From Phycisphaerales bacterium (lineage in GTDB: Bacteria > Planctomycetota > Phycisphaerae > Phycisphaerales > UBA1924), in the NCBI GenBank assembly GCA_029260295.1, contig JAJDDN010000004.1:10246-74245 (forward strand): a DNA stretch of 64,000 nt, in the 5' to 3' direction. Positions within the stretch are counted from its first letter, which is position 1; each line of letters opens with the position of its first letter. A model generated the notes under the pieces. That model saw only the letters and a program-made list of their open reading frames with translations. It searched no databases and was not told the origin of the DNA. Made by a program: the position numbers and the translations under genes. This document shows, one piece after another, positions 7,348 through 45,713 of this stretch.

Positions 7348-8244
7348 TTATGGGCACCCCCCGCTAAACTCGGTCAGGAATGAAGCGATGTCAAAGAAAT
7401 CGAATACGGTGTCATTGTTGTAATCCACCCGATCCGTGAGAAACATCGAAATATCGAAGAAATCGAGCTGCCCATCACCCGTGATGTCCGGGGAACAAGG
7501 CACAAACTGATCGATCGTCGGGGAGTATTCGATCACAAACTCGTCGATATACCGGAATGTCTTCCCATTCTCAATGTAGGTCGCATCTGGGTCGATCAAA
7601 AAGGTCGGATCTGCGGTTGCTGAGATTTCACAATCGGTCGAGAGCGTTGCATGCGCAACTATCTCAACCAACCCTGATTGCCCGACGGGAAGAACCGTGC
7701 TGTGAACAATGCTGAACGAATCTTGGGTAATGTCACCCCCACCGCTGAGCCCCGCGGACGCTCCTTCATGAATAAACGGGTTCAAGCTCGATGCCCCAGG
7801 CATAAATACTTTCGCAACAGCGCTCACCGATGCCCCTGCACCAGAGCCGGTTCTGGTCGCTGAAACATCCCCGCGAGCACGGATTACCACCGGAACCGCT
7901 GTTCTTGTAGAGCCAGCCACGGCTGATACATGATACAAATAACGAACCTGCGCATGGAGCGCGAGTGCCGAAGTAAAGCCCCCAGTGACAGCCGCTTGAA
8001 CATCCGCTTGTGGCGACTGCCCACCCGCGGTCATCACATCAGCATCAAATGAACGCGAGTTTCCAAACTGATCAACATCAGAATATCCCCAACTTCCAAA
8101 GACAGGGACATTGAGAAACCCACTATCGAACTGACCATCAGGAGCAACGATCCAAGCGTTGTACCACGCGTTGGCAACCTGCCCCTTGGCGGGTGTGATG
8201 AGGGCAATCAGACTAAGCAGGGCTGCAGCAGTGAGGACTTTCAT
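7348..8244 (-). CDS. secreted protein with C-terminal GCP-terminated dockerin-like anchor
   Basis: Signal peptide MKVLTAAALLSLIALITPAKGQ (start taken at the internal ATG 8244). The C-terminus is PDITGDGQLDFFDISMFLTDRVDYNNDTVFDFFDIASFLTEFSGGCP. The N-terminal domain is unrecognised. Confidence 0.6.
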   Translation of the reverse strand: MKVLTAAALLSLIALITPAKGQVANAWYNAWIVAPDGQFDSGFLNVPVFGSWGYSDVDQFGNSRSFDADVMTAGGQSPQADVQAAVTGGFTSALALHAQVRYLYHVSAVAGSTRTAVPVVIRARGDVSATRTGSGAGASVSAVAKVFMPGASSLNPFIHEGASAGLSGGGDITQDSFSIVHSTVLPVGQSGLVEIVAHATLSTDCEISATADPTFLIDPDATYIENGKTFRYIDEFVIEYSPTIDQFVPCSPDITGDGQLDFFDISMFLTDRVDYNNDTVFDFFDIASFLTEFSGGCP

Positions 8245-25859: not shown

Positions 25860-27914
25860 ATGCCCCCAAACCTCACCCCCACCCCCATCCAAACCAAAGC
25901 CACCACCCTCCTCCTCCTCGCCCTCCTAACACTCCTAACCCCCCAATCCAAAGCCGACGGCGTCCTCTGCAACTCCAGAAATATACTTGCTTTGCACGAC
26001 ACGCCAGGAAATGCAAGAAATGTCACGCTCGTTGGCACCACAGCATATGTCGCCGATGCGAACTCGGGGTTCCAGATACTCGACATGACTGATCCGACCA
26101 CCCCAGTATTACTAGGGTCATACGACACACCCGGATTCGCAAGCCGTGTGACCATAGTGGGAACAACAGCTTATATTGCAGAAGGCGGGTCCGGGTTACA
26201 AATCCTCGATGTGTCCGACCCCACCGCAATCGTATTTCTCGGATCATTCGACACACCAGGATCAGTTCAGAGTGTTGCCGTTGTGGCCGAAACAGCATAC
26301 ATAGCTGATGGCGATTCCGGCTTGTTAATCCTTGATGTCAGCAATCCAGCAAGCCCGTCAGTGCTCGGGACATTAAGCGCATTCAACAGCAACTTCAGCG
26401 ACATCGTTGTCGTAGACACAATCGCTTACATCACGGACACATTCGAAGGCCTCCGGACTGTTGATATTAGCAACACCAATTCGCCATCGTTGCTCAACCT
26501 AAGAATCATTCAAGGTGCTTCAAAGGATGTGGAGGTCAAAAATTCCGTCGCGTACATCGCAACAACAAACAACGGATTGTTGATATTGGATGTTTCAGAC
26601 CCGTCTTCGCCACAGTTTTTAGCAGCACGGGATACAAACGGAATAGCAGTTTCCGTTACCGTACAAGACACAGTCGCATATGTGTCCGATGGTGATCTGG
26701 GCGTGCTTCTTTATGATGTAAGCAATCCAGCTTCACCTGTCCACATCGGTTCCTATGACACACCCAACAGTGCCCTAGCGGTCGCAACAGATGGAGTCAT
26801 TGCCTATGTCGCCAATGGCTTGGCAGGTATCCAAATTATAGATGTCAGCAATCCCTCTCAGGATTCAATCGTTGGAACATATCCCCTATCCGATGCAACT
26901 GAAATCGATATGGTTGGCAATGTGTCATTTGTCTTACGAACTTTCGCAGGCATGCGAATAATTGATGTCAACAATCCAGCAACACCAACCTTGCTCGGTT
27001 CATACGACAAGCCCGGTTTCAGAGTGTATACAGGAATCTCAGTTGTTGAAAACACTGCATACATCACCGATACAACATCAGGACTTCAGATTGTAGATGT
27101 TTCCGATCCCGAAAATCCTGTTTTCGTCAACTCCTTGAGCTTGCCCAGTAGCCCATCCGATGTGACCGTCGTCGGCTCAACCGCCTTTGTAGTGTCAGGG
27201 TCAACAGGATTGCATCTCGTTGATGTGAGTGATCATTCATCACCGTTCCTGATCAGTTCTATTGATACACCAGGCTTCGCAAGCCATGTTGCTTTAGCAG
27301 GATCAAACGCATTCATAGCAGATGACGACAACGGCTTAGTAATCATCAGCTTGAAAAACCAAGCGAACCCAGTCATCCTCGGCACATACAACACCCCCGG
27401 CGATGCCACAAGTGTCTTTGTAGTAGGCTCCATTGCCTATGTTGCCGATCGCCTTTCAGGCTTGCAATTAATCGATGTATCGAATCCTGCAACTCCAGAA
27501 CTACTCGGATCATACGACACTCCAAGCGAAGCAAGAAGTGTTGTAGTCTCAAATACAACCGCCTACATCGCAGATTTCACCGCAGGCCTGCACATAATCG
27601 ATGTTCAAAACCCACAATCTCCCGTTCATCTGGCATCCAAAGACACCCCCAACAGAGCCACTAGTCTGGTTCTAAACGATTCATTCGTATTCATTGCCGA
27701 TGATGACGCAGGCCTCCAAATCATCGACATCTCCGACTGCCCCCCATGCCCCGCAGACCTCAACAACGACAACACCCTCGACTTCTTCGACATCTCAACA
27801 TTCCTCACCGCCTTCTCAGCATCCGACCCCGTCGCAGACTTCTCCCAAGACGGCCAATACGACTTCTTCGACATCGCCGCATTCCTCACCGCCTTCTCCG
27901 CCGGCTGCCCCTAA
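25860..27914 (+). CDS. LVIVD-repeat beta-propeller protein with C-terminal GCP-terminated dockerin-like anchor
   Basis: Signal peptide MPPNLTPTPIQTKATTLLLLALLTLLTPQSKA (internal ATG 25860). About 14 repeats of the form AY(V/I)AD...GL.I(L/I)DVS(N/D)P..P..LGSYDTPG. The tail is CPADLNNDNTLDFFDISTFLTAFSASDPVADFSQDGQYDFFDIAAFLTAFSAGCP. Confidence 0.8.
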   Translation: MPPNLTPTPIQTKATTLLLLALLTLLTPQSKADGVLCNSRNILALHDTPGNARNVTLVGTTAYVADANSGFQILDMTDPTTPVLLGSYDTPGFASRVTIVGTTAYIAEGGSGLQILDVSDPTAIVFLGSFDTPGSVQSVAVVAETAYIADGDSGLLILDVSNPASPSVLGTLSAFNSNFSDIVVVDTIAYITDTFEGLRTVDISNTNSPSLLNLRIIQGASKDVEVKNSVAYIATTNNGLLILDVSDPSSPQFLAARDTNGIAVSVTVQDTVAYVSDGDLGVLLYDVSNPASPVHIGSYDTPNSALAVATDGVIAYVANGLAGIQIIDVSNPSQDSIVGTYPLSDATEIDMVGNVSFVLRTFAGMRIIDVNNPATPTLLGSYDKPGFRVYTGISVVENTAYITDTTSGLQIVDVSDPENPVFVNSLSLPSSPSDVTVVGSTAFVVSGSTGLHLVDVSDHSSPFLISSIDTPGFASHVALAGSNAFIADDDNGLVIISLKNQANPVILGTYNTPGDATSVFVVGSIAYVADRLSGLQLIDVSNPATPELLGSYDTPSEARSVVVSNTTAYIADFTAGLHIIDVQNPQSPVHLASKDTPNRATSLVLNDSFVFIADDDAGLQIIDISDCPPCPADLNNDNTLDFFDISTFLTAFSASDPVADFSQDGQYDFFDIAAFLTAFSAGCP

Positions 27915-27970
27915 ACCCCCCAGCCCCCCATCCACCACATTCTCTCTCCCGAGTAGCGAATGCCGGGTGC

Positions 27971-28010
27971 CACTGCTTGACCGTCCTCGGCAAGCAGTGT
28001 CTTTTCTTCT
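27971..28010 (+). terminator. intrinsic terminator after the LVIVD gene
   Basis: CACTGCTTG-11 nt-CAAGCAGTG followed by TCTTTTCTTCT. Confidence 0.6.
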
Positions 28011-28057
28011 CCAAAGATGACAATTGGCAAATCACCCCTCCCCCCCTACAATCCCCC

Positions 28058-29440: not shown

Positions 29441-29455
29441 TCCGATCCGGTATGC

Positions 29456-31693
29456 TTGGCTATGCCCAGCGTGATGAGTGATCTCACAACAACCATGAGT
29501 CAGCGTGCCAAGTCTGCTATTGAGCGGATGGGTAGTGAATTGTTGTCGTCACGCACGGGAACGAGTGATCTTGATATTGACCGGCTGGGATTTGAGTTGC
29601 GGGTGGTGCTTCAGCGGATTTTGATACTTGATCGTGTGGGAATGCTGGGTGCCGATCTGACTTGGGAGAAGTTGTTGGATATGGATCTGGAACGGCAATT
29701 GTTCCACGTGGAACAATTGCCTAAGGACCGGATTTGGTCGGGGGATTGGGTGGGTCTTGTGCGGCGGGAGTTTGGCTTGTCCGGCGGGAAATGGTTTGAT
29801 GAAATCGTCGAATTGGTTCGGGGGGATTCGGTGGAGATGGGGGCGGTGGATGAGTCATTGATGGGGTGGGTGGCTCGGATTGAGGATGGTCAGTTTGTGT
29901 TGGTTGCCGAGGATGATTCTGATCGGAAGGTTGGGGGGGTGTTTTATACGCCGGCTTCTGTGGTTGGGTATGTGCTGGACCGGGCACTCTCGCCTGCGAT
30001 TGATGGGTGCGGGAAAGATGTGAATCGGTTGCTTGGTTTGCGGGTGTGTGATCCGGCGTGTGGGTGCGGGTATTTTTTGATTGAATCTGCTCGGCGGATT
30101 TCGGCTGCGATTGAAGTGGCCGGGGGTGGTGATCGGTATTCAGATGTGATCCGGGGGTGTGTGTTTGGGGGCGATGTGAATCGGATGACGGTGGAGGTGT
30201 GCCGATGGTTGTTGTGGCTTGAGGTTTCGGATAGGTCGATTTCGGTTGATGAGCTTCGGCGGAATGTGGTGTGCGGCGATGGGTTGGTTGACGAGGATAC
30301 ATTTGGAAAAAATGGGAATGGGGGGTTTGATGTGGTGGTTGGGAATCCTCCGTTTTTGAATCAGCTGGGGTCTGGGACGGCGCGGTCGGCGGAGCGGGTC
30401 AAGCGGCTTCGCAAGCGTGGGCTTGTTGGAGGGGCGGCGTATACGGATGAGGCTTCTGCGTTCTTTGTGCTGGGGTTGGGGATGGTGGGTGGGATCGAGG
30501 AGCAGAAAGAAAGACCCCCTCCGTCTGCGAAGACGCAGACACCTCCCCCGGAGGCCCGGGGGAGGCGGAAGATTGGGCGGGTGTGTATGGTGCAGCCGCA
30601 GTCGGTGGTGGCTACTCGGGGCGGGGCCTTTGCGCGGGCGAGGGTTGCTGAGATGGGGAGTTTGGAATCGTTGTGGGTTTCCAATGAGCATGTGTTTGGG
30701 GATGCGAGTGTGTATACATGTGCGCCTTGTGTGGTGGTTGGGGGAGAGGGAGAAACTCGGTCGGTTCAAAGACCACTCCCTGACGGTCGCGGCTCGTTGA
30801 AGAGTGGAGCGGGAGTTGTGCGGCGGTTTTCTGGTGGTGGGTTTGTTGAGCATGAGCCGTTGGTTATTTCGAGCGACGAGATTGGGGGGCTTGCGACTTG
30901 GTCTTCTATTGCGGCGGTGACGATGGGGGTTCCTGAGATTGGGATTGAGTCGGCGGGGGTTGTTGGTGATATGGCGACGGCGACTGCGGATTTCCGGGAT
31001 GAGTACTACGGGCTTGTGGGGAAGTTGGTTGAGGATTCAGACTGTCGTGATCTGGAGGGATCGCCTGCGGTGCTGACTACGGGGCTTGTCGATTTGGGGG
31101 TGAACCACTGGGGGCGTAAGGCGACGCGGATTCATAAGGAGCGATGGGAATCGCCTCGGGTTGGGGCGGCTGGGATTGTTGGGGATGCTCGGCTTTCAAA
31201 GTGGGTGGCGGCTCGGCGTGTGGAGAAGGTTGTGGTGGCGACGCAGACGAAGGTAGTGGAGGCGTTTGTGGATGCGACGGGGGAGTTTGTTGTTTTGACG
31301 CCGATGATTTCGGTGATGTTTCGGAATGAAGACATGCAGGAGCCGAAGACGGCACCTACATGGCACCCAGAGAAGAGTGTTTGGATGATTGGGGCGGCGA
31401 TCGGGTCGCCGGTGTGTAGTGCCTTTGCGATGCGGTTCTTTGGGGGGGCGGCGATGCATGCCGATGCGCTCAAGATGAGTGCTCGGCAGGTGATGGAGTT
31501 GCCGCTGCCGGCTGATGGTGCGGGATGGTCAGCAGGGGCCGAGGCCTTTGAACGGGTGCACAGTGCTTGTGGCGATGAATATGACCGTGCGATCACAGAG
31601 TTTGGGGAAGTTATGTGCGGGGCGTATGGGGTTGAGGGGGATGATTTGGAGGGGTTGATGGGGTGGTGGCTTGGGCGGCTGGGGATCGGGTGA
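29456..31693 (+). CDS. Eco57I/type IIG-like N6-adenine DNA methyltransferase (no nuclease domain recognised), solitary
   Basis: GGVFYTPASVVGYVLD, SAM motif I VCDPACGCGYFL, catalytic motif IV VVGNPPF. The long C-terminal region is plausibly a target-recognition domain. Carries an in-frame element copy. Confidence 0.75.
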   Translation: MAMPSVMSDLTTTMSQRAKSAIERMGSELLSSRTGTSDLDIDRLGFELRVVLQRILILDRVGMLGADLTWEKLLDMDLERQLFHVEQLPKDRIWSGDWVGLVRREFGLSGGKWFDEIVELVRGDSVEMGAVDESLMGWVARIEDGQFVLVAEDDSDRKVGGVFYTPASVVGYVLDRALSPAIDGCGKDVNRLLGLRVCDPACGCGYFLIESARRISAAIEVAGGGDRYSDVIRGCVFGGDVNRMTVEVCRWLLWLEVSDRSISVDELRRNVVCGDGLVDEDTFGKNGNGGFDVVVGNPPFLNQLGSGTARSAERVKRLRKRGLVGGAAYTDEASAFFVLGLGMVGGIEEQKERPPPSAKTQTPPPEARGRRKIGRVCMVQPQSVVATRGGAFARARVAEMGSLESLWVSNEHVFGDASVYTCAPCVVVGGEGETRSVQRPLPDGRGSLKSGAGVVRRFSGGGFVEHEPLVISSDEIGGLATWSSIAAVTMGVPEIGIESAGVVGDMATATADFRDEYYGLVGKLVEDSDCRDLEGSPAVLTTGLVDLGVNHWGRKATRIHKERWESPRVGAAGIVGDARLSKWVAARRVEKVVVATQTKVVEAFVDATGEFVVLTPMISVMFRNEDMQEPKTAPTWHPEKSVWMIGAAIGSPVCSAFAMRFFGGAAMHADALKMSARQVMELPLPADGAGWSAGAEAFERVHSACGDEYDRAITEFGEVMCGAYGVEGDDLEGLMGWWLGRLGIG
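30497..30571 (+). repeat. palindromic G/C-rich element, copy 4 (in-frame inside the methyltransferase, opposite genomic orientation)
   Basis: GAGGAGCAGAAAGAAAGACCCCCTCCGTCTGCGAAGACGCAGACACCTCCCCCGGAGGCCCGGGGGAGGCGGAAG. Hairpins GTCTGCG/CGCAGAC and CCTCCCCCGG/CCGGGGGAGG. Translates as EEQKERPPPSAKTQTPPPEARGRRK. Confidence 0.75.
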
Positions 31694-31903: not shown

Positions 31904-33598
31904 TTATCTATCGGCCCGCACAAAGATGATGATCTCGGGGCCTGCTGGCGAGGGGATGCTTGCGATTTCTTTGAGCGATGGATCGGCCCTGATTATTTCG
32001 AGTAGTTGTGCGGTAGCTTGGTCGCCTTGATAACGGTGGATGAGTGGGCGGCCTTGCTCGTCGGCTACGCCTGGTTCATTGGCGACGATGAGGTGGGCTT
32101 TGGCGATCCGCTGGGTGTGGTATTCTGGATTTTCAATAAAGGTGCCGTGGCTGAAGTGCCAGTTGCTGTGACCCTCTAGGAGGATTAGGTACGCGAGGGT
32201 GTCTTTGTTGACATAGCCGGAGGTGGTGAGGTAGACCTGGACCTCGCCGGGTTTTCCGCTGGCTTTGAGGGCTTGATCGGCGAGGGGGCGTGCGTCGACC
32301 AGCTCCTGGGCGACGCTGCGCGCCATGGCGTCGGAGGCGGCTGGATCGAAGCCGGGGCGGCTTGTGGGGGTGATGGCGCCGGGGGTGTTGCGTGGGAAAT
32401 CAAACGCGGCGACCGACCACACGATCAGCGTGATCGAAACGACGAGCCCCACTGCTCGGTGGAGTCTGTTGATTGTACTTTGCTGGTGGGCCAGCATGTG
32501 GCGCAACCCAATTATCGCGATGATCAGCACAAGCACCCCGAAGACGAGGGCAAAGTATGGGTTCTTGGTGGCGTTGGTCGCGGGGATTATTAAACACCCA
32601 AATGACACGATCCAGAGCTGGATGATGTAGTGCTTGAGGGCACGCTGGCGGGCGAGGATGACCGAGAGTGTGCCTGCAGCGGCGAGGATGAGAATCGGGA
32701 GGAGCTGGCGTCCGAAGACGAGGGTGCCGCCCTGGCCCCTGAGGAAGTAGTCGATGTTCTCGAATCCTGCGAGGTTGCGGTCCCAGTTTTTGGCGCGGTC
32801 GCCGAAGGTGTTTTCCCAGAAATAGTTGAAGTAGAGGAGCCCGAAGCGGGCGAAATGTGCGCTGGCGATCACTGTGGAGATCGACGCGGTGAGGGCGATG
32901 TTGATCAGGAGATCTCTGTATTTTGAGTCGGGGTCTTTGCGGCATTGATAGATTTCGCGGAGGGTCATGATCAGACCCGCGATGCCGACATAGACGATGG
33001 TGGCGGCGAAGATGTGGGGCTTGGCGAGCAATGCGATCCCGGTGAGGACGCCTGCGATGACGGCGGCTTTGCGCGTCGCGGGCGATGCGTTGATCATGAG
33101 CACCGCGAGGATTGCGCCTGCGGTTGCGAAGGCGGCGGCGAAGTCTGGGCGGAAGTCGGTGATGGTGTGGCCCATCAATGGGAGACAGAGGGCGACGATC
33201 CAGCACGAGGACTTGACGCGGAGTGATGCGTTTGGGGTGATCCAGTCGATCAGGGCGAGCATCGCGAGGATGAGCAGGGCGTTGATTGCGTAGGTGGACC
33301 ATGGGGCGGGACCCAAGAGCAGGTAGCCGAGGGTTGAGGCGGAAACGCTCCAGGTGGAGAGCATGGCTTTGATGAATGCGAGGGGATCGCCTGAACGGAT
33401 TGCTTGGAGCTGGGTGAGGGCGTCGAGATGGTGGACGACATCGTCGTATTGCGGGAGAGCGGAGAGGCGTCCGACGGCGAGGGATTGCTGGATTTGGATG
33501 AGTGTGAAGAGTGCTGTGAGGGGGATGGCTAGGGCAAGGCGTTTGTAGAATGGTTGTGGCGGATGATCGGATGTGATTATGGTGGTAAAGATGTTCAT
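31904..33598 (-). CDS. polytopic membrane glycosyltransferase, GT39/ArnT-like (tentative)
   Basis: More than 10 TM helices followed by a ~170-aa soluble C-terminal domain, an architecture typical of ArnT/PMT-type lipid-linked sugar transferases. Start chosen at ATG 33598, preceded by GGAGA. The family call is not motif-proven. Confidence 0.5.
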   Translation of the reverse strand: MNIFTTIITSDHPPQPFYKRLALAIPLTALFTLIQIQQSLAVGRLSALPQYDDVVHHLDALTQLQAIRSGDPLAFIKAMLSTWSVSASTLGYLLLGPAPWSTYAINALLILAMLALIDWITPNASLRVKSSCWIVALCLPLMGHTITDFRPDFAAAFATAGAILAVLMINASPATRKAAVIAGVLTGIALLAKPHIFAATIVYVGIAGLIMTLREIYQCRKDPDSKYRDLLINIALTASISTVIASAHFARFGLLYFNYFWENTFGDRAKNWDRNLAGFENIDYFLRGQGGTLVFGRQLLPILILAAAGTLSVILARQRALKHYIIQLWIVSFGCLIIPATNATKNPYFALVFGVLVLIIAIIGLRHMLAHQQSTINRLHRAVGLVVSITLIVWSVAAFDFPRNTPGAITPTSRPGFDPAASDAMARSVAQELVDARPLADQALKASGKPGEVQVYLTTSGYVNKDTLAYLILLEGHSNWHFSHGTFIENPEYHTQRIAKAHLIVANEPGVADEQGRPLIHRYQGDQATAQLLEIIRADPSLKEIASIPSPAGPEIIIFVRADR

Positions 33599-33680
33599 GC
33601 CAACGGTCTCCGCTTGGTTTGCAGTGTAGCGGATTGGTTGACATGTCACGGGCTCTATGGGCGTGATTCTTGGGTGGGGA

Positions 33681-36140
33681 TTATGGACAACCGCTCTGGA
33701 ACTCCCCTAGGAAAGTGGCGATATCGTGGAAGTCCCACATCCCGTCGCCGTGCATATCGACCCTGTGCTCGAAGAAGAACACGAAATCAAAGAAATCAAG
33801 CTGGCCGTCTCCTGTGAAATCTACATGGCAGGGGACGAACTTATAGGCGGCTCCGGCTCCGGGGCCGTTGTAGTCGTCTTCGATTGCTCCTGTGATGATG
33901 ATGCCTTGGGATATTGAGATTGAGTGGCCCATACGGGCGTTTTCGGAGCTGGTCCCTTCTCTGACCATTCTATGTGTTTGAGTACCTGTTACAGCATCGA
34001 ACAGATATGCGGCGCCTGTTGAGTTGCCGTTGGTGTTGTGGCCTGTTGCGCCTACGGCCACTCTGTGTTGGTCAATGGAGACTGAGGAGCCGAACTGGCT
34101 TGACGGGGCGCCGTTGTCTGGGAGGAGTTTGGCGAGTTGTGTTCCGGTGGCTGCGTCGAAGAGGTAGACCGATCCTGAGTCGAATCCGTTGTCTTGATCG
34201 AGCCATGCTCCTACGGCGACGATGCCTCTGTCTATTGCAATTGAGTACCCGAACTGATCGCCTGGGGCTCCGTCTGATGGGAGGAGTTTGGCGAGTTGGG
34301 TGCCGGTGGTTGCGTCGAAGAGGTATGCGGCGCCGGAGTCTTGGCCGTTGGCGTCGTTCATGTATGATCCGACTGCGACGATGTTCTGGTCGATGGCGAT
34401 ACTCCACCCGAAGCGGTCATCTGATTGTCCATCGCCAGCGAAGAGTTTGGCGAGTTGTGTTCCTGTGAGGGCATCGAATAGGTAGGCGGCACCGGTGTCC
34501 GATGCGTTGGCGTCGCCTCCTGGGGCACCGACGGCGACGGTTTGAGCATCAATGTCGATGGATATGCCGAAGAAATCGAAGAGCCCGGCGTCGGTTGGGA
34601 GGAGTTTGGAGACTTGATTTCCTGTATCAACTTCGAATACATAGGCGGAGCCTGAGGCGGGGCCGTTGTCGTTGTCGACATGGGCGCCGGCGGCGAGAAG
34701 GCCGTCTGAAATGGCTACCGCGTGGCCGAACTGGCTGCTTGGGTCGGCGTCTGCGGGCGTGATTTTGTGGTTGGTAAAGGAGGGGAGACCTGCACTAAAC
34801 ATATAGACGGCTCCTGAGTTTGATCCAGTTTCGTCGTTGAAGCTTGCTCCAACGGCGATGATTCGGTCTTGGATGGCGACTGACTGGCCTAGATGATCAT
34901 CAACGAGACTGGAGAGGGGGATTATTTGTGCAGTCTGGGTGGCTGTGGACAAGTTGTACTGATAGACCGATCCTGAATCAACACCGATCGCATCGGTGAG
35001 TGGTGCGCCGGTGATTACCACGCCATTTTCTAGAGCGGTTGAGGTTGCGTAAGAATCATGAAGTTGGAGTTGTTCTGGGGAGAACTTGGAGACTTGCGTG
35101 CCAGTTGCTAGATCGAAGATGTATGTCGCGCCATTGAACTCATCTAGGGCTGAATTTGCTCCCGGTGCACCGATGGCGAGCGTGTTATTTTCGATTGCGA
35201 GTGAACTTCCGAATTGAGCCAACCTACTCACATCGCTTGCGAGAAGCCTGTGGAGTTCTGTTCGGGTTGCGAGATCGAATAGATAGACCGCCCCTGCGCC
35301 TCCGCCTACAGAGCTGTCTTCAAGTGGTGCACCAACAGCGATGATGCCGTTGCTCATTACGATAGAGGATCCGAAACGGGAAAATCCGGATGTATCGTCG
35401 GGGTTGCTTGGATTCAGCTTTGCGAGTTGAGCTCCGGTGGCGATGTCGAAAAGATATGCGGAACCCGTACGCGGATCGCCTTTGATGCGGTCGTTGTCGG
35501 CACCGACGGCGAGGATGCCGTTGTCGATGGTGACTGATGAGCCGAAGAGATCGTTTGAAGCCCCGTCATCGGGTGTGATTTTGGAGATTTGGGCACCAGT
35601 GGAGGCATCGAATAGGTATACCGAGCCAGAGGAGCCTCCCGCATCATCATCACCCCAGGCACCGACTGCGACGATACCGCTTTGTATGGCGACCGAGTTC
35701 CCGAAAGCATCAGATGGTGATCCGTCATCTGGGAGGAGTTTGAAGAGTTGGTTGCCAGTGGAGGCATCGAATAGGTATACTGAGCCGGAGTTCGTTCCGT
35801 TGTCGTCGTCACTGGGTGCACCTACGGCGACGATGCCGTTGTGGATTGCGATTGAGTTTCCGAACGAGCTGCTGTTGGTCCCATCGTCTGGAATAAGTGT
35901 CACGATTGGGAGTGTCGTGTTGGCATCGACCAAGAATACCGAAACAGCTCCGCCGATGGCGATGATGCCGTTGTCTACAGCTATTGAAGTCCCCAACCTC
36001 GTGTGGGCGGGTCCTTCGTTTGATATGAGTCTTCCGCCATGTAAGATTTCTTGACCGTTGGCTGGTGCGGTCAGTACTGAAATTGTTAGAAAGAGCGTGG
36101 TCCAGACGAGATTGAGGGCGCAGAGGGTATGGGCTCGCAT
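33681..36140 (-). CDS. FG-GAP-repeat beta-propeller protein with C-terminal GCP-terminated dockerin-like anchor
   Basis: Start ATG 36140 preceded by AAGGAG. Signal peptide. About 13 repeats FG.S(V/I)AI....(I/V)AVGA..DD..G..SG(S/A)(V/A)YLFD..TG.Q. The tail is DFTGDGQLDFFDFVFFFEHRVDMHGDGMWDFHDIATFLGEFQSGCP. Confidence 0.8.
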   Translation of the reverse strand: MRAHTLCALNLVWTTLFLTISVLTAPANGQEILHGGRLISNEGPAHTRLGTSIAVDNGIIAIGGAVSVFLVDANTTLPIVTLIPDDGTNSSSFGNSIAIHNGIVAVGAPSDDDNGTNSGSVYLFDASTGNQLFKLLPDDGSPSDAFGNSVAIQSGIVAVGAWGDDDAGGSSGSVYLFDASTGAQISKITPDDGASNDLFGSSVTIDNGILAVGADNDRIKGDPRTGSAYLFDIATGAQLAKLNPSNPDDTSGFSRFGSSIVMSNGIIAVGAPLEDSSVGGGAGAVYLFDLATRTELHRLLASDVSRLAQFGSSLAIENNTLAIGAPGANSALDEFNGATYIFDLATGTQVSKFSPEQLQLHDSYATSTALENGVVITGAPLTDAIGVDSGSVYQYNLSTATQTAQIIPLSSLVDDHLGQSVAIQDRIIAVGASFNDETGSNSGAVYMFSAGLPSFTNHKITPADADPSSQFGHAVAISDGLLAAGAHVDNDNGPASGSAYVFEVDTGNQVSKLLPTDAGLFDFFGISIDIDAQTVAVGAPGGDANASDTGAAYLFDALTGTQLAKLFAGDGQSDDRFGWSIAIDQNIVAVGSYMNDANGQDSGAAYLFDATTGTQLAKLLPSDGAPGDQFGYSIAIDRGIVAVGAWLDQDNGFDSGSVYLFDAATGTQLAKLLPDNGAPSSQFGSSVSIDQHRVAVGATGHNTNGNSTGAAYLFDAVTGTQTHRMVREGTSSENARMGHSISISQGIIITGAIEDDYNGPGAGAAYKFVPCHVDFTGDGQLDFFDFVFFFEHRVDMHGDGMWDFHDIATFLGEFQSGCP

Positions 36141-36414
36141 AAGTAATGCTCCTTGAATTAATACCCTCTTGGATGCACTGTACCATTGGCAATAAACTAT
36201 TCGCAATACGAAACTATGTATTCTGTGGAATTATTGCATTGGCTTGCGGGTCTTTGTCCCCGCCCCACTTGTTAAGGGGGCCATTATTGTCTATTTTGGA
36301 GCGAATTGGGTAACTATGGCCATGGGGACGCATACTTGCAGGCAGGGATCGGGATCTGATATTTGATCAACTGTCTTACTCAACGGGTGGGGTGATCCAT
36401 ATCGAGGGTGTGTG

Positions 36415-36468
36415 CCTGTGCGTGAGGCCCGGTCGCGATTTTAGTCGCGGCTCGGGCCTCTCTTTTGG
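36415..36468 (+). repeat. copy 2 of the ~55-bp hairpin element
   Basis: CCTGTGCGTGAGGCCCGGTCGCGATTTTAGTCGCGGCTCGGGCCTCTCTTTTGG is near-identical to 31757-31813 and in the same orientation. It lies between two minus-strand genes. Confidence 0.6.
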
Positions 36469-36513
36469 CGCCGTGTTAACGACGCGGTTCAGATGTACGC
36501 TTTGTGTTTAGGC

Positions 36514-38352
36514 TTATGGGCAGCCCGCCATGAATGCTGTCAGGAATGTGCTGATGTCAAAGAAGTCGAAGCTGCCGTCTCCTGTGAGATCTGCGATTGG
36601 GTCCCCACTGCTGAATGCGGTGAGGAATGCTGCGATATCAAAGAAGTCGAGCGTGCCGTCTGCGGTCATGTCTGCGGGGCAGGTGTTGACGCAAACGCCG
36701 GTCATTGAGCAGAAGGTGGTGAGTTCTGCTACAGGCGAGACTGCGGTGCCGCCAGGAGCTGCTGGGTCAACGACGAGCCACTGCATGTAGAATGTTTGGC
36801 CGTCGAGTGCTTGGTCGCTTGGGATTGGCCAGAACATTGTGCCGAAGCCGTTGCCGTTTCCTGCGCCTTCGAGTGCGATTGGGCCGAGGATTTCGTCTTG
36901 TGGGACGAGACCTGATACTGGCGGTGAGGTTGAGACGACGACGAATGCTTGTGCACCGCCGAGGGCGTTGTTGATACCGACCTTGAAGCCGTCGTTGCCA
37001 AGGTTTGGTGGGCAGACTGCGATCATGTCTGGGACGATCCCGCCTGAGCCTGCAGTGCCGGCTCCGATGACGGCTGGGTTTGCGGCTGGGAGTTCGGCGT
37101 ACATGGTTGGGCGATCGAAGGGGAATGTTTCGGCTGCGACGCGTGGGTCGGTGAGGCCGTTTTGGAGGAAGTTGATGACATTTGCCTGGGCTTGTGGGCC
37201 AAAGGTGATGGGGAGCGCCATGAATGGATCAAGGTTTTGTGGGAACGGGTTCTGGCCGTTTCTGTGTGCGTAGAAATCGAAGACTTGCATGAGTGAGGCG
37301 TGTCCGCCGTTGTGCATGTAGCGGTCACGGAGACCGGTGTTGCGGAGTGATGGCGTTTTGAAGCGGCCGCGGTCGATTGGGTCGTTTGTGACATTGAATC
37401 GGCCGAGGTCTTCGATGAGTGGACGCACGCCGATGTTTCTGAATGAGTTGTCTGTGAACTGTGCGCCGATGTGGCATGCGTTGCAGAGTGATGCTCTGAA
37501 TGCGTTGAGGCCGTTGATTTGCTGTGGCGACATTGCCGCTGCGTCCCCGGCGATGAACAGGTCGTATGGCGTTTGGTCTGGGACCAGGGTGCGTTCGTAG
37601 GTTGCGATGGCCATGCCTACGCGTCCGGCGGTGAGCTGGGAATCGCCGAAGACTTCTTGGAACATTTGTGGATAGGTTTTGCCTTGGGCGATGACGGCGG
37701 CCATATCTGCCGGGAGATTTGAGGCGAGGGCCAAGGGTTTGGCACCGGTGAGTTTGACTAGGATCTGCGCCCAGTCGCGGCTCTGGTGTGCCATCTCTGC
37801 GCCGCTGGCGGGTGGGCCTACGGCTTGGCTTTCAAGGGCACCGCCTGATGCGATGAGGACTTGTCCTGTGATGGGATCGGTGAACTGTGAAGTGGCGCGG
37901 CCGTCCCAGAAGAGTTCTGGTGCGTACATGCCCATGATTGATGGAGGGGCCTGGCGGCCGGTGACCTGGACATCGAGGTCGTAGAGGGGCGAGGGGACAT
38001 ACTTATCGTCGGCGTCTTGGAAGACGACTCCTGGGGAGCCGAAGATGTCGTCTTGGTTTCCGAAGATGTTATCGGGTCCTGGGTTGATACCCATGCGTTC
38101 ATCGGTGCCTCCGACAGCTGGCTGGTGGCATGAGCCACAGGACATGGTGTTGTCGCTGGAGAGTTGTTCGTCCCAGAAGAGGATTTTACCGAGGTCTGCT
38201 TTTTCTTGGGTGAACTGGTTTTCTGGGGGGAATGGCACTGGTGGGAGCGGCTGGGCTAGGGATTGCGAACTGATTGAAGCCAGTACAATTGCGGGCGCTA
38301 TCAACCTGAGTTGACAGACGATTGGTGAGACACGACAGATGTTGGTGCGCAT
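36514..38352 (-). CDS. di-haem cytochrome c peroxidase (CcpA/MauG family) fused to a C-terminal GCP-terminated dockerin-like anchor
   Basis: Haem sites CGSCH and CNACH, FKTPSLRN, conserved Trp/Met regions, signal peptide. The tail is CPADMTADGTLDFFDIAAFLTAFSSGDPIADLTGDGSFDFFDISTFLTAFMAGCP. Confidence 0.85.
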   Translation of the reverse strand: MRTNICRVSPIVCQLRLIAPAIVLASISSQSLAQPLPPVPFPPENQFTQEKADLGKILFWDEQLSSDNTMSCGSCHQPAVGGTDERMGINPGPDNIFGNQDDIFGSPGVVFQDADDKYVPSPLYDLDVQVTGRQAPPSIMGMYAPELFWDGRATSQFTDPITGQVLIASGGALESQAVGPPASGAEMAHQSRDWAQILVKLTGAKPLALASNLPADMAAVIAQGKTYPQMFQEVFGDSQLTAGRVGMAIATYERTLVPDQTPYDLFIAGDAAAMSPQQINGLNAFRASLCNACHIGAQFTDNSFRNIGVRPLIEDLGRFNVTNDPIDRGRFKTPSLRNTGLRDRYMHNGGHASLMQVFDFYAHRNGQNPFPQNLDPFMALPITFGPQAQANVINFLQNGLTDPRVAAETFPFDRPTMYAELPAANPAVIGAGTAGSGGIVPDMIAVCPPNLGNDGFKVGINNALGGAQAFVVVSTSPPVSGLVPQDEILGPIALEGAGNGNGFGTMFWPIPSDQALDGQTFYMQWLVVDPAAPGGTAVSPVAELTTFCSMTGVCVNTCPADMTADGTLDFFDIAAFLTAFSSGDPIADLTGDGSFDFFDISTFLTAFMAGCP

Positions 38353-41491: not shown

Positions 41492-42136
41492 ATGTTGAAA
41501 GTAACTGGAATTATTGCTGTCGTTTCGATCGCCGGCACCGCATTCGCTTCACCTGTTCTTGGCGATTACTCGAGCTACAACCAGATCAGCTCCGACAGCA
41601 TCACTGCTGTGTCGCTTGAAGAAGGTACGCAAGGCGCGACCAGCAGCGTGTACTCGAACATGGATGCTGGCGGAGGCTTTAACGCATTCCCATCCGGCAA
41701 CGGCGCGCTTGGATTCGATGATTACACCTCGACGAGCGCTGGTGCGATCACTATGGAATCGATCCGCTTTGTTGGCGGCGTTGATGCGGTAGGCGGCGTG
41801 CTCAACTTTGAGTTCTTCGATGCAGCCGGTGCAAACCTTATCACTGCGTTCTCGGTGAACTTCTCGCAAGCGGGAAACTTCATCTGGACCATCACTCTTG
41901 GTGGCGCGTTCACCGCTGATGCTGCGGGCGTCCTGCAGATCACCACCGACGCGACTTCCAATGGCCAGTGGTTCTTGAGCGATGCGGGCCCAACCGTTGG
42001 TAGCGAAGACAACACCTTTGGCGGCGCCAGCGGTGGTCTTCTGTCTCACAAGTTTGAGATCAATGTGATCCCTGCTCCGGGTGCTTTGGCACTGTTGGGG
42101 ATGGGCGGGATTGTTGCTGGGCGTCGTCGCCGGTAA
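41492..42136 (+). CDS. PEP-CTERM sorting-domain secreted protein
   Basis: Signal peptide MLKVTGIIAVVSIAGTAFA. C-terminus VIPAPGALALLGMGGIVAGRRRR. Confidence 0.75.
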   Translation: MLKVTGIIAVVSIAGTAFASPVLGDYSSYNQISSDSITAVSLEEGTQGATSSVYSNMDAGGGFNAFPSGNGALGFDDYTSTSAGAITMESIRFVGGVDAVGGVLNFEFFDAAGANLITAFSVNFSQAGNFIWTITLGGAFTADAAGVLQITTDATSNGQWFLSDAGPTVGSEDNTFGGASGGLLSHKFEINVIPAPGALALLGMGGIVAGRRRR

Positions 42137-43391: not shown

Positions 43392-43928
43392 TTAAGCTCT
43401 ACGGGTGCGGCGTTGGCAGCCCAACAGACCGCCGAGGAGTGCGAGTCCGGCGGCGGGCGCTGGGACTACTGTGATTTGTGCGCCATCGGGTCCAGAGATC
43501 GTCATGGTGTACTCGCCCAAGTTCTGGCCTGTTCCTTGCTCAATATACCACCATGAACCCATACTGACTTCATACACGCCCGCCAACAGATCTACGCTTC
43601 GGGAGACAGGGACTCCGGTGGGCGCATCGCCTTCTTGGATATAAAACGGAGTGTCATCATAGTTGTTTGTGTCGAAGTCCCCGTCGGCTGTCACACCAAA
43701 CCATGGCGACAAGCTCTGGCCGGGGTCCATTTCAAAGTTATATGTTCCCTCTGTGTCGATGTTGATGCGAACGAGGTCGTAGTAGAACGAGTTCCCTGCG
43801 CCGTCAAGGAAGTATGAGATCGAGTCAGTATCACTGACCTCACCGGAGATAACGAGCGGGTTGTCTGCCAATGCGAGCGGCGACATTGCAACTACTAAAA
43901 TAACTGGAACGATTCGGTGCATGAACAT
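43392..43928 (-). CDS. PEP-CTERM sorting-domain secreted protein
   Basis: Signal peptide ...IVPVILVVAMSPLALA. C-terminus VVPAPAAGLALLGGLLGCQRRTRRA. Confidence 0.75.
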   Translation of the reverse strand: MFMHRIVPVILVVAMSPLALADNPLVISGEVSDTDSISYFLDGAGNSFYYDLVRINIDTEGTYNFEMDPGQSLSPWFGVTADGDFDTNNYDDTPFYIQEGDAPTGVPVSRSVDLLAGVYEVSMGSWWYIEQGTGQNLGEYTMTISGPDGAQITVVPAPAAGLALLGGLLGCQRRTRRA

Positions 43929-44924: not shown

Positions 44925-45713
44925 ATGAAAACGCACAAGAACTCCCGTTTGGCAGCCATGTCGATTGTCGCACTCGCCGGATCGCACGCGCTGGCAGGAG
45001 ACCGTGATGTACAGTTTACAAGAGTCTTTACTGACACACATGTCATTGAGATGACCAATACGGGCGATGCTCCGGTTTCTCTCGGCATGTGGCAGTTCTG
45101 TACCCAGAACTCCGCATCGGTATTCAACTACTCAATCGGCGCGACACTTATTGGTCGCGTGCTCCAGCCGCAAGAATCGATGACTATTCATATGAACAAT
45201 GATGCCGACCCGGGTGACCCTACTCAAATGAATCGGATTGAGATGGGCGGCTTTGCCAGCTTTGAACTCACCGCCTACAGCCTCGCGATCTATTCCCCGG
45301 GCTCTCAAGGATTTATTAACTTCGCCAATGGAAATCAAATGATCGACTTTGTTCAATGGAGCATTGACGGGCTTGACAACTTCACCGCTGACGAGCGGTC
45401 CGACGAGGCGGTTTCGGGTGGTTTGTGGACCAATGCGGAAACTTGGATCAATGTCCAGAACGACACGACACTCATCGAACTCGATGATCCCACCTTCGGG
45501 CAGCTCCATGGTCCTGATAGCTATGCTGTTTCTGGAGCGGTATCGTGCTTGGCCGACCTCACCGGCGATGGCGTTCTGGACTTCTTTGATATCTCAACTT
45601 TCCTCACCGCCTTTGGAATAGCCGATCCAGCTGCTGATTTCACTGGCGACGGCAGTTTCGACTTCTTCGATATCAGCACATTCCTCATCGAGTTCTCGTC
45701 TGGCTGCCCTTGA
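44925..45713 (+). CDS. secreted protein (possible lamin-tail-like domain) with C-terminal GCP-terminated dockerin-like anchor
   Basis: Signal peptide MKTHKNSRLAAMSIVALAGSHALA. VIEMTNTGDAPVSLGMWQF resembles LTD motifs (weak). The tail is CLADLTGDGVLDFFDISTFLTAFGIADPAADFTGDGSFDFFDISTFLIEFSSGCP. Confidence 0.7.
   Translation: MKTHKNSRLAAMSIVALAGSHALAGDRDVQFTRVFTDTHVIEMTNTGDAPVSLGMWQFCTQNSASVFNYSIGATLIGRVLQPQESMTIHMNNDADPGDPTQMNRIEMGGFASFELTAYSLAIYSPGSQGFINFANGNQMIDFVQWSIDGLDNFTADERSDEAVSGGLWTNAETWINVQNDTTLIELDDPTFGQLHGPDSYAVSGAVSCLADLTGDGVLDFFDISTFLTAFGIADPAADFTGDGSFDFFDISTFLIEFSSGCP

What the first reader, a model, noticed from the sequence alone, without database searches (positions are those of the whole stretch)
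33684..36681. Recurrent GCP-terminated double dockerin/EF-hand-like C-terminal anchor on five unrelated secreted proteins
Five ORFs end with the same ~50-aa module: C-x(2,3)-D-[LMF]-[TN]-x-D-G-x-[LFW]-D-F-F-D-[IF]-x-x-F-[LF]-x-x-F, a short linker, D-[FL]-[TS]-x-D-G-x-x-D-F-[FH]-D-I-[AS]-x-F-L-x-x-F-x-x-G-C-P-stop. Coordinates are 7351-7500(-), 27738-27911(+), 33684-33833(-), 36517-36681(-) and 45546-45710(+). The duplicated D-x-D-G-x-x-D segments look like the Ca-binding loops of type I dockerins. The flanking Cys residues (CP...GCP) could form a disulfide. The cargo domains differ: unknown, LVIVD propeller, FG-GAP propeller, di-haem peroxidase, LTD-like. From memory this matches what NCBI family models call a GC-type dockerin anchor in Phycisphaerae-type planctomycetes. 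The binding partner (a cohesin equivalent) and its function are, to my knowledge, not established, and no candidate partner lies in this window.
Basis: partly seen in the sequence, partly recalled or inferred. Interest (0 to 1): 0.65.

Follow-up and report, generated by a model that had tools for sequence, protein, structure and literature searches.

The report
GC-type dockerin tails on secreted proteins
Five unrelated secreted proteins of an uncultured marine Phycisphaerales bacterium end in the same small calcium-binding, probably disulfide-closed, dockerin-like module; NCBI already catalogues it as the "GC-type dockerin" anchor, it is very common in this lineage, and what it docks to is still unknown.

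Summary
Exactly five ORFs in the window end in a 50-58 aa duplicated D-x-[TN]-x-D-G-x-L-[DN]-F-F-D-[VI]-S-A-F-L module. Each module is bracketed by two Cys and is followed by G-C-P-stop.

All five match NCBIfam NF041540 (GC-type dockerin). Three score above its cut-off. Two belong to a short-linker subclass and score below it.

A 55-tail profile finds solved dockerins from cohesin-dockerin complexes as its best PDB matches (E=1.4e-4). AlphaFold models (pLDDT about 90) most resemble dockerins.

The family is large: 25,240 clusters at 50% identity. In 1.2 Mb of related Phycisphaerales DNA I found 312 further modules. Of the 305 near-full modules in that DNA plus the window, all lie within 6 residues of the stop codon. 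In those regions, which were picked because they hold a tail, 36% of genes carry it.

The cargo is mostly beta-propellers. The same LVIVD cargo elsewhere carries T9SS, PEP-CTERM or ordinary dockerin tails, which supports a surface-anchor or sorting role.

No cohesin or other partner was found. There is no literature on this module.

Verdict: a real feature, correctly interpreted, and an already known family. The mechanism is inferred, not shown.

Aside: the window has an extreme GC skew (third-codon positions ±0.7) with a sharp, read-supported sign switch at about 29.45 kb.

The parts
7348..8244 (-). Gene 1: secreted protein of 298 aa. The cargo has no family match. The GC-type dockerin tail is of the short-linker class.
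   Evidence: ORF and signal peptide MKVLTAAALLSLIALITPAKG. Exact match to a deposited 298-aa protein. No Pfam hit. NF041540 scores 16.3 bits, below the cut-off of 29.
7351..7500 (-). Tail 1: PCSPDITGDGQLDFFDISMFLTDRVDYNNDTVFDFFDIASFLTEFSGGCP
   Evidence: AlphaFold2 pLDDT 89.5 with two helices. Best structural matches are the dockerins 2ozn_B, 2vn5_B and 6kgf_D.
25860..27914 (+). Gene 2: secreted LVIVD-repeat beta-propeller (choice-of-anchor B family) with a GC-type dockerin tail. The ATG start is inferred.
   Evidence: Pfam LVIVD 2.3e-106. TIGR04312 at 111.8 bits and NF041540 at 41.5 bits. Start and signal peptide.
27738..27911 (+). Tail 2: CPPCPADLNNDNTLDFFDISTFLTAFSASDPVADFSQDGQYDFFDIAAFLTAFSAGCP
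   Evidence: 31-mer depth is 547 here against about 29 on the flanks, and contigs break here in the source metagenome.
33681..36140 (-). Gene 3: secreted FG-GAP_2 repeat propeller with a short-linker GC-type dockerin tail. The ATG start is inferred.
   Evidence: Pfam FG-GAP_2 1.1e-152. NF041540 scores 20.4 bits, below the cut-off. Start.
33684..33833 (-). Tail 3: PCHVDFTGDGQLDFFDFVFFFEHRVDMHGDGMWDFHDIATFLGEFQSGCP
36514..38352 (-). Gene 4: secreted di-haem cytochrome c peroxidase / MauG-like enzyme with a GC-type dockerin tail.
   Evidence: Pfam CCP_MauG 8e-36. NF041540 scores 50.1 bits. Exact match to a deposited 612-aa protein. The orthologue in MAG NORP244 is 83.6% identical at the DNA level.
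36517..36681 (-). Tail 4: CPADMTADGTLDFFDIAAFLTAFSSGDPIADLTGDGSFDFFDISTFLTAFMAGCP
   Evidence: AlphaFold2 pLDDT 90.2 with helices at 20-32 and 47-59. Foldseek match to dockerin 2y3n_B has TM 0.61/0.63 and rmsd 2.2 A.
44925..45713 (+). Gene 5: secreted protein of 262 aa with a lamin-tail-domain-like cargo (sub-threshold match) and a GC-type dockerin tail.
   Evidence: Pfam LTD 1.6e-6 at 28.9 bits against a cut-off of 34.3. NF041540 scores 43.0 bits. Exact match to a deposited 262-aa protein.
45546..45710 (+). Tail 5: CLADLTGDGVLDFFDISTFLTAFGIADPAADFTGDGSFDFFDISTFLIEFSSGCP

Best explanation
The five tails are members of the GC-type dockerin family (NCBIfam NF041540) of Phycisphaerales.

The module is a divergent homologue of cellulosomal dockerins. 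It has two loop-helix ('F-hand') repeats, and each should bind one Ca2+ through loop positions 1, 3, 5, 9 and 12 (D-x-[TN]-x-D-G-x-L-[DN]-F-F-D). A Cys three residues before loop 1 and the Cys of the terminal G-C-P most likely form a disulfide. That bond would tie the start of repeat 1 to the end of the repeat-2 helix and close the module.

Proposed mechanism. The protein is exported by its Sec signal peptide. The tail then folds with Ca2+ in the oxidising envelope or exterior. It attaches the cargo non-covalently to one common partner on the cell surface. The cargo is mostly beta-propellers, plus some enzymes such as the di-haem peroxidase here. The helix positions that give cellulosomal dockerins their specificity (10, 11, 14, 17) are almost invariant here (F-F..S..L) in both repeats and across hundreds of paralogues. 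That pattern fits a single shared receptor and a symmetric, dual-mode binding surface.

Shown here: family membership, dockerin-like sequence and fold, strict C-terminal position, the paired Cys, secretion signals, cargo diversity, and interchangeability with other anchor or sorting tails.

Inferred only: Ca2+ binding, the disulfide, surface docking, and the existence and nature of the partner.
For: - Family: NF041540 matches all five tails over the whole 67-position model. Three score 41.5-50.1 bits against a cut-off of 29.
- Dockerin homology: a profile of 55 tails against all PDB sequences gives dockerins of cohesin-dockerin complexes as its best hits. These are 2y3n_B (E=1.4e-4) and 5lxv_B (8.1e-4), followed by 2b59_B, 5k39_B, 3kcp_A and 8ajy_B. 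The alignments cover both Ca loops and both helices.
- Fold: AlphaFold2 models of a long-linker and a short-linker tail reach pLDDT 90.2 and 89.5, each with two helices after two loops. The best Foldseek PDB matches are dockerins, with TM up to 0.63 and rmsd 2.2 A.
- Conservation: in 317 modules, the loop ligands are D11 in 309, D15 in 269, G16 in 292, D/N19 in 306 and D22 in 313. The second loop shows the same pattern.
- Cys pair: both Cys are present in 295 of 317 modules. The exceptions are truncated ORFs, a few degenerate tails, or families where the first Cys has moved. In unrelated proteins with tandem internal modules, the sampled modules usually carry both bracketing Cys or neither.
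- Position: all 305 near-full modules end 0-6 residues before the stop codon, 275 of them at 0.
- Secretion: all five window proteins have signal peptides.
- Anchor logic: among the 120 best homologues of the LVIVD cargo, 19 carry a T9SS sorting domain, 3 a canonical Dockerin_1, 1 a PEP-CTERM tail and 4 a GC-type dockerin. Protein 2 also matches TIGR04312 'choice-of-anchor B'.
- Selection acts on the protein, not on recently copied DNA: the five tails share only 72% mean column identity at the DNA level.
Against: - No cohesin (PF00963) or other candidate receptor was found among the window ORFs scanned. None was found among the recurrent neighbours in 1.2 Mb of related GC-dockerin islands. Only a subset of proteins was scanned and no whole genome was searched.
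- Pfam Dockerin_1 is matched only below threshold: 13.0-14.5 bits against 22.9. None of 91 representative family members hit it at E<=1e-4.
- The Foldseek E-values (about 2) are not significant for so small a domain.
- The absolute restriction to the extreme C-terminus and the near-invariant G-C-P-COOH are more typical of sorting signals than of binding modules.
- No experimental study exists.
Confidence: 0.6

Rival explanations
1. The module is a folded C-terminal secretion or sorting tag. A dedicated, still unknown Phycisphaerales machinery would recognise it for transport across, or attachment to, the outer membrane, analogous to the T9SS C-terminal domain. It may be removed, or covalently processed at the terminal Cys, rather than acting as a permanent cohesin-type binding module.
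For: - Strict C-terminal position in all 305 near-full modules, and a near-invariant G-C-P end.
- Very many substrates: 307 of 855 genes in the related loci and 25,240 clusters in the 50%-identity protein library.
- The same cargo elsewhere carries true sorting signals, namely the T9SS CTD and PEP-CTERM.
- No cohesin was found.
Against: - The module has no transmembrane helix or basic cluster, unlike PEP-CTERM, LPXTG or MYXO-CTERM tails. PEP-CTERM-like tails co-exist as a separate class in the same window.
- The Ca ligands and both helices are conserved far more tightly than usual for cleaved signals.
- In more distant relatives the same Cys-bracketed module occurs as internal tandem copies, which cannot be C-terminal signals.
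- No candidate processing enzyme recurs next to the genes.
Confidence: 0.2
2. The module has no dedicated receptor. It would act as a Ca2+-dependent self-association or lattice-forming element. Options are tail-to-tail contacts, tail-to-propeller contacts, or intermolecular disulfides through the terminal Cys. These would link the many propeller proteins into a surface layer. Alternatively it binds a non-protein envelope component such as an anionic polysaccharide.
For: - No cohesin was detected.
- The cargo is dominated by two propeller families: FG-GAP_2 in 17 and LVIVD in 16 of 91 representatives.
- Single-repeat tails exist that keep both Cys (C..loop-helix..GCP). These could restore the two-repeat geometry only by pairing with a second chain.
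- By helical periodicity, the conserved face is very hydrophobic (F-F..S..L in both repeats; plus inference).
Against: - There is no direct evidence.
- Dockerins with known partners bind cohesins.
- The single-repeat forms may simply be deletions caused by recombination between the two near-identical repeats.
- Absence of a cohesin was not tested genome-wide.
Confidence: 0.15
3. The recurrence is a compositional or annotation artefact, such as spurious ORFs or low-complexity sequence, with no biological meaning.
For: The genome has an extreme strand composition bias and many long spurious antisense ORFs.
Against: - HMM E-values reach 3e-13.
- Real cargo domains lie upstream in the same frames.
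- There are thousands of homologues.
- Synonymous DNA divergence accompanies a conserved protein sequence.
- The gene calls match deposited proteins exactly.
Confidence: 0.01

Closest known systems
NCBIfam NF041540, dockerin_GC ('GC-type dockerin domain-anchored protein')
   Same: It covers the same 2 x (Ca loop + helix) module, has the same G-C end, occupies the same C-terminal position and occurs in the same taxon (Phycisphaerales). Three of the five tails score above the curated cut-off, and related MAG proteins already carry this name.
   Different: Two tails (genes 1 and 3) have a 2-3 residue inter-repeat linker instead of 7. They score 16.3 and 20.4 bits, below the cut-off of 29, so the curated cut-off would not give them this name. 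About 6% of modules in related genomes (18 of 317) are of this short class.
Type I dockerin of cellulosomes (Pfam PF00404), e.g. 1OHZ_B, 2VN5_B, 2Y3N_B
   Same: It shares the duplicated 22-residue F-hand segment with D-x-[ND]-x-D-G-x-[IVL]-[ND]-x-x-D loops. It shares two antiparallel helices, internal two-fold sequence symmetry and C-terminal placement on secreted proteins. Profile and fold searches pick dockerins first.
   Different: - Scores are below the Pfam threshold.
- A bracketing Cys pair and a terminal G-C-P are present here.
- An invariant aromatic F-F sits at the positions (10, 11) that are Ser-Thr or Ala-Leu specificity residues in clostridial dockerins.
- The cargo is mostly propellers, not carbohydrate-active enzymes.
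- No cohesin partner is known or was found.
- The organism is a Gram-negative-type planctomycete.
C-terminal sorting or anchoring tags that replace one another on the same cargo: T9SS C-terminal domain (PF18962), PEP-CTERM (PF07589), LPXTG
   Same: These tags occupy the same position on homologous LVIVD 'choice-of-anchor B' cargo in other lineages. They also mark very large sets of secreted proteins per genome.
   Different: The fold is different: a two-helix Ca module rather than a beta-sandwich or a transmembrane helix with a basic tail. No cognate machinery is known. Nothing here shows cleavage.
'Planctosome' hypothesis for freshwater Phycisphaerae (Nemodlikiaceae), Andrei et al. 2019, PMC6461901
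   Same: It is a non-cellulosomal cohesin/dockerin system proposed for members of the same class. It also involves a lamin-tail-domain protein at the surface. An LTD-like cargo occurs here as well (gene 5).
   Different: That model rests on canonical cohesin and dockerin domains in a few proteins of another order. Here the module is the GC-type variant, it is present on a large share of genes, and no cohesin has been identified.

Membership tests
NCBIfam NF041540 GC-type dockerin | Whole-protein HMM score at or above the curated cut-off of 29 bits | tested here: inconclusive
   Genes 2, 4 and 5 score 41.5, 50.1 and 43.0 bits (met). Genes 1 and 3 score 16.3 and 20.4 bits (not met). Their alignments still span model positions 1-67, and they differ only by a linker deletion.
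NCBIfam NF041540 GC-type dockerin | Module lies at the extreme C-terminus and ends in Gly-Cys plus 0-2 residues | tested here: met
   Searches show GCP-stop in all five. In relatives, 305 of 305 near-full modules end within 6 residues of the stop. Of 210 family proteins, 174 end in GCP.
NCBIfam NF041540 GC-type dockerin | Occurs in large paralogous sets in Phycisphaerales or Phycisphaerae (my recollection of the family's scope) | tested here: met
   Nearly all of the 69 best genome loci are titled Phycisphaerales MAGs. These loci were picked because each holds a tail; 307 of the 855 genes in them carry it. The window's AspRS clusters with Phycisphaerales proteins.
Dockerin type I (Pfam PF00404) | Pfam gathering threshold of 22.9 bits | tested here: not met
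   One search gives 13.0 and 14.5 bits for two tails and nothing for the others. One search finds no Dockerin_1 hit at E<=1e-4 in 91 members.
Dockerin type I (Pfam PF00404) | Two tandem Ca-binding loop-helix (F-hand) repeats, with the dockerin fold | tested here: met
   The profile alignment to 2y3n_B and 5lxv_B covers both repeats, at E=1.4e-4 and 8.1e-4. AlphaFold2 models score about 90 pLDDT. Dockerins are the top structural matches, but at non-significant E-values.
Dockerin type I (Pfam PF00404) | Ca2+-dependent binding to a cohesin module | not testable with these tools
   No cohesin was found in the window or among recurrent neighbours in related loci.
EF-hand (PF00036, PF13405, PF13833) | Helix-loop-helix with an entering helix, and a score above the Pfam threshold | tested here: not met
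   Scores are 9.5-14.4 bits against cut-offs of 25-28. In the models the residues before loop 1 are non-helical. The module is therefore an F-hand (loop-helix) as in dockerins, not a full EF-hand.
PEP-CTERM, MYXO-CTERM or LPXTG type sorting signals | Short motif followed by a hydrophobic transmembrane segment and a basic C-terminal cluster | tested here: not met
   The tail sequences have no hydrophobic span and no Arg/Lys cluster. Two other window proteins do have such tails, which shows the contrast.

The most novel reading that the evidence does not exclude
GC-type dockerins may be the address tag of a lineage-specific, non-cellulosomal surface-display system of marine Phycisphaerales. Its receptor would not be a recognisable cohesin. 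It could be a new fold, the propeller cargo itself, or a secretion or attachment machine acting on the terminal Cys. Through it a large share of the secreted proteome, including arrays of up to ten consecutive genes, would be mounted on the cell surface.
Probability: 0.3. Interest if true: 0.7.

Novelty: already known. Interest (0 to 1): 0.35.

Why it matters
Planctomycete cell surfaces are poorly understood, and these marine Phycisphaerales are known only from metagenomes. In the tail-bearing regions of related genomes sampled here, about a third of the genes carry this tag, so it probably defines much of what the cell shows to its surroundings. Finding the partner would reveal either a non-cellulosomal cohesin-dockerin system in a Gram-negative-type phylum or a new sorting pathway. 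In practice the module already has a curated model, so the window adds no new kind of element. It adds three things: a sub-threshold short-linker subclass, evidence for a closing disulfide, and numbers on abundance and clustering.

Tried and rejected
1. Pfam on the tails alone. Only sub-threshold Dockerin_1, EF-hand and FG-GAP hits appeared, so Pfam membership cannot be claimed.
2. Literature searches. 'GC-type dockerin' and 'choice-of-anchor' + 'dockerin' returned no papers. 'Dockerin' + 'Phycisphaerae' or 'Planctomycetes' gave only the planctosome hypothesis for another lineage.
3. Partner search by neighbourhood. I clustered 855 genes from 69 related loci plus the window. The recurrent genes without a tail were a DoxX protein, a Ser/Thr kinase, an ABC ATPase, ATP synthase, NhaA, FtsX, an HTH regulator, a secreted alpha/beta-hydrolase-like protein and a YbbR-like protein. 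None was cohesin-like.
4. A scan of the window ORFs for cohesin found none.
I repeated it with the 5-sequence alignment.
6. Measuring the Cys-Cys distance was not possible, because model coordinates are not exposed.
7. A crude signal-peptide heuristic on the related loci gave only 154/293 for tail-bearing genes against 148/528 for others. This shows enrichment but is too rough to claim that all are secreted.
8. Assembly chimera as the cause of the GC-skew switch was rejected. An independent contig of the source run spans 27866-30540 with no differences and even depth, and two other runs cross the junction.
9. DnaA boxes are not enriched in the window.

Full report
**1. Observation**

Translating the five intervals reproduces the five tails, each ending in G-C-P followed by a stop codon. 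A six-frame scan of the window finds ten D-F-[FH]-D-[IF] half-repeats. They lie in pairs in these five ORFs only, and these are the only ORFs that end in this module followed by GCP-stop. The tails align with 21 invariant columns. The cargo regions are mutually unrelated (best BLASTP E=0.16).

All five proteins begin with a signal-peptide-like segment. Three of the gene calls match deposited proteins exactly, from a 176.7-kb NCBI contig.

**2. What it is**

NCBIfam NF041540 ('dockerin_GC, GC-type dockerin domain-anchored protein') matches all five tails over its full 67 positions. Genes 2, 4 and 5 score 41.5, 50.1 and 43.0 bits against a cut-off of 29. Genes 1 and 3 score 16.3 and 20.4 bits. 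These two have a 2-3 residue linker between the repeats instead of 7.

Pfam does not recognise the tail. Dockerin_1 reaches 13.0-14.5 bits against 22.9, and the EF-hand models reach 9.5-14.4 bits against cut-offs of 25-28.

A profile of 55 tails searched against all PDB sequences returns 21 matches at E<=10. Fourteen of them are dockerin-bearing chains, including the best seven, and the first two are significant:
- 2y3n_B at E=1.4e-4
- 5lxv_B at E=8.1e-4

The alignments cover both loops and both helices.

AlphaFold2 models of a long-linker tail (pLDDT 90.2) and a short-linker tail (pLDDT 89.5) both show loop-helix-loop-helix. Their best Foldseek PDB matches are dockerins: 8x39_B and 2y3n_B (TM 0.61/0.63, rmsd 2.2 A) for the first, and 2ozn_B, 2vn5_B and 6kgf_D for the second. 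These E-values are not significant for so short a domain.

The short-linker tails are therefore bona fide variants that fall under the curated cut-off.

**3. Extent and anatomy**

An exhaustive HMM search of 1.84 billion representative proteins finds 25,240 clusters at E<=1e-3 and 6,139 at E<=1e-10. Most single-module hits end exactly at the protein's last residue. Of 210 retrieved family proteins, 174 end in GCP and 189 in GC plus at most 4 residues.

A scan of one genome per species returned loci that are almost all titled Phycisphaerales MAGs. The closest, NORP244, is 83.6% identical in DNA over the peroxidase gene.

In these 69 loci plus the window (1.28 Mb) my HMM finds 317 modules:
- All 305 near-full modules end 0-6 residues before the stop codon, 275 of them at 0.
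- The consensus is C-P-A-D-L-[TN]-G-D-G-x-L-[DN]-F-F-D-[VI]-S-A-F-L-x-A-[FY]-x-x-x-D-P-x-A-D-F-[NT]-G-D-G-x-[FY]-[DN]-F-F-D-[VI]-S-A-F-L-x-A-[FY]-x-A-G-C-P. The Ca-loop positions 1, 3, 5, 6, 9 and 12 are conserved in both repeats.
- Both Cys are present in 295 of 317. The rest are ORFs cut by locus ends, a few degenerate tails, or families in which the first Cys has moved 18 residues upstream or into the loop.

In unrelated proteins with tandem internal copies, the sampled modules usually have both bracketing Cys or neither. Together with dockerin topology, where the antiparallel helices bring the end of repeat 2 next to the start of repeat 1 (established knowledge of dockerin structures), this supports an intramodule disulfide. 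I could not measure it because coordinates are not exposed.

The five tails are only 72% identical per column at the DNA level. Conservation is therefore due to selection on the protein.

**4. Context**

In the window the five genes are scattered among housekeeping genes: UvrD, phosphoglucomutase, a DinG-like helicase, RsmG, RodA, PBP2, aldehyde dehydrogenase, AspRS, carbonic anhydrase, GGT, GAPDH and PNPase.

The related loci were picked because each holds a tail. In them, 307 of 855 genes (46% of coding length) carry the tail. Arrays reach ten consecutive tail-bearing genes.

The cargo of 91 representatives is mainly FG-GAP_2 (17) and LVIVD (16) propellers. There are a few M10 and M66 peptidases, one GH16, lectin and Ig domains.

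Recurrent neighbours without the tail are unrelated housekeeping or regulatory genes. No cohesin was seen. The window also encodes two proteins with PEP-CTERM-like tails, so a second tail class co-exists.

**5. Function**

Protein 2 matches TIGR04312 'choice-of-anchor B'. Among the 120 best homologues of its LVIVD cargo:
- 19 carry the T9SS sorting domain
- 3 carry a canonical Dockerin_1
- 1 carries a PEP-CTERM tail
- 4 carry a GC-type dockerin

The tail therefore sits where other lineages place surface-sorting or anchoring modules.

The best-supported mechanism is a Ca2+-loaded, disulfide-closed dockerin-fold module that docks secreted proteins onto a shared surface partner. By helical periodicity, the nearly invariant F10, F11, S14 and L17 of each repeat fall on the face that contacts cohesin in type I dockerins. 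Their invariance in both repeats and all paralogues fits one common receptor and a dual binding mode. This step is inference only.

The main rival is a folded sorting or secretion tag. The absolute C-terminal position and the invariant G-C-P favour it. The lack of a transmembrane or basic segment, the tight conservation of the fold, and the internal tandem copies in distant relatives count against it. A receptor-free self-association or lattice model cannot be excluded.

**6. Comparison and novelty**

This is the family that NCBI already models and names. Related MAG proteins carry the name. No paper in the searched library describes it. The nearest published idea is the 'planctosome' of freshwater Phycisphaerae, which is built on canonical cohesin and dockerin domains.

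I rate it as already known. The function is open, and interest is moderate to low.

**7. Aside**

The window has an extraordinary strand asymmetry. GC skew is about -0.3 to -0.58 up to about 29.4 kb and +0.4 to +0.54 after it. Third-codon-position skew is ±0.6-0.73 whatever the gene's strand. Related MAGs show the same asymmetry over Mb-scale contigs.

The switch lies in the 33-bp gap between two + strand genes, and the downstream gene reads as coding from its start. An independent contig and two further runs cross the switch, so it is not a chimera. DnaA boxes are not enriched.

Noticed in passing
window 1-64000; switch at about 29440-29475: The window has an extreme strand composition asymmetry. 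GC skew is about -0.3 (down to -0.58 in 500-bp windows) left of about 29.45 kb and +0.4 to +0.54 right of it, with a mirrored AT skew. Third-codon-position GC skew is ±0.6-0.73 regardless of gene orientation. The sign change has origin-like polarity and rsmG/gidB lies 7.5 kb away. However, it falls in a 33-bp gap between two + strand genes, with no AT-rich region and no DnaA-box cluster. Independent contigs from three runs cross the junction, so it is not a chimera. Related MAGs (NORP244, MAG_29, HXMU1429-2, SGMAG-77) show the same skew along Mb-scale contigs. To my knowledge such values are far above typical bacterial skews.
   Followed up: partly
window 41492-42136 (+) and 43392-43928 (-): Two small secreted proteins end in PEP-CTERM-like tails: VIPAPGALALLGMGGIVAGRRRR and VVPAPAAGLALLGGLLGCQRRTRRA. 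Both are below the curated thresholds (Pfam PEP-CTERM 16.5 bits, MYXO-CTERM 16.6 bits). Six more occur in the related loci. A second C-terminal tail system therefore co-exists with the GC-type dockerins.
   Followed up: partly
window 27835-28001: The DNA of the GC-dockerin tail behaves as a dispersed repeat in the source metagenome. Its 31-mer depth is 547 against about 29 on the flanks. Independent contigs of that run break or mis-join here. Tails of this family are thus likely break points in MAG assemblies.
   Followed up: no
window 7351-7500 (-), 33684-33833 (-); 18 of 317 modules in the related loci plus the window: A short-linker subclass of the GC-type dockerin has 2-4 residues between the repeats instead of 7. 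It scores below the NF041540 cut-off (16.3 and 20.4 bits) yet is predicted to fold as a dockerin (pLDDT 89.5). A model-based annotation would not give these the family name.
   Followed up: yes
L051:301-17372, L012:2-16287, L059:986-18581: Related Phycisphaerales genomes hold arrays of up to ten consecutive genes that all end in the GC-type dockerin. Some arrays are flanked by a hybrid sensor kinase or a sigma-54-type response regulator. In these 69 loci, which were selected for holding at least one tail, 46% of coding length belongs to tail-bearing genes.
   Followed up: partly
proteins P0069, P0070, P0072, P0074, P0075, P0077, P0078, P0166 (representative search); P0062-P0064, P0066; L005:10916-11074, L018:327-1919, L046:6669-7976: Cys-bracketed dockerin-like modules also occur as 4-7 tandem internal copies in unrelated long proteins. 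Modules without the first Cys also lack the last one (P0067, P0071). Separately, single-repeat tails (C..one loop-helix..GCP) exist. They could be deletions between the two near-identical repeats, or units that must pair with a second chain.
   Followed up: partly
window 26000-27500: The central part of the LVIVD gene has lower GC (0.46-0.52) and near-zero GC skew in a region where the flanks are at -0.4. Its dockerin tail shows the local skew again. Gene 1 (7348-8244) and the 41-51 kb stretch also lack the local third-position skew. These may be recently acquired or re-oriented genes.
   Followed up: no
window 15495-17078 (-): A 527-aa P-loop protein has sub-threshold similarity to an NCBIfam 'anti-phage protein' model (NF053860, 90.7 bits against a cut-off of 370) and to Sll1717-family ATPases. 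It has no Pfam hit.
   Followed up: no
window 31904-33649 (-): A 581-aa polytopic membrane protein with no family match lies 32 bp downstream of the FG-GAP and peroxidase GC-dockerin genes on the same strand. Its function is unknown, and I did not test whether the position is conserved.
   Followed up: no
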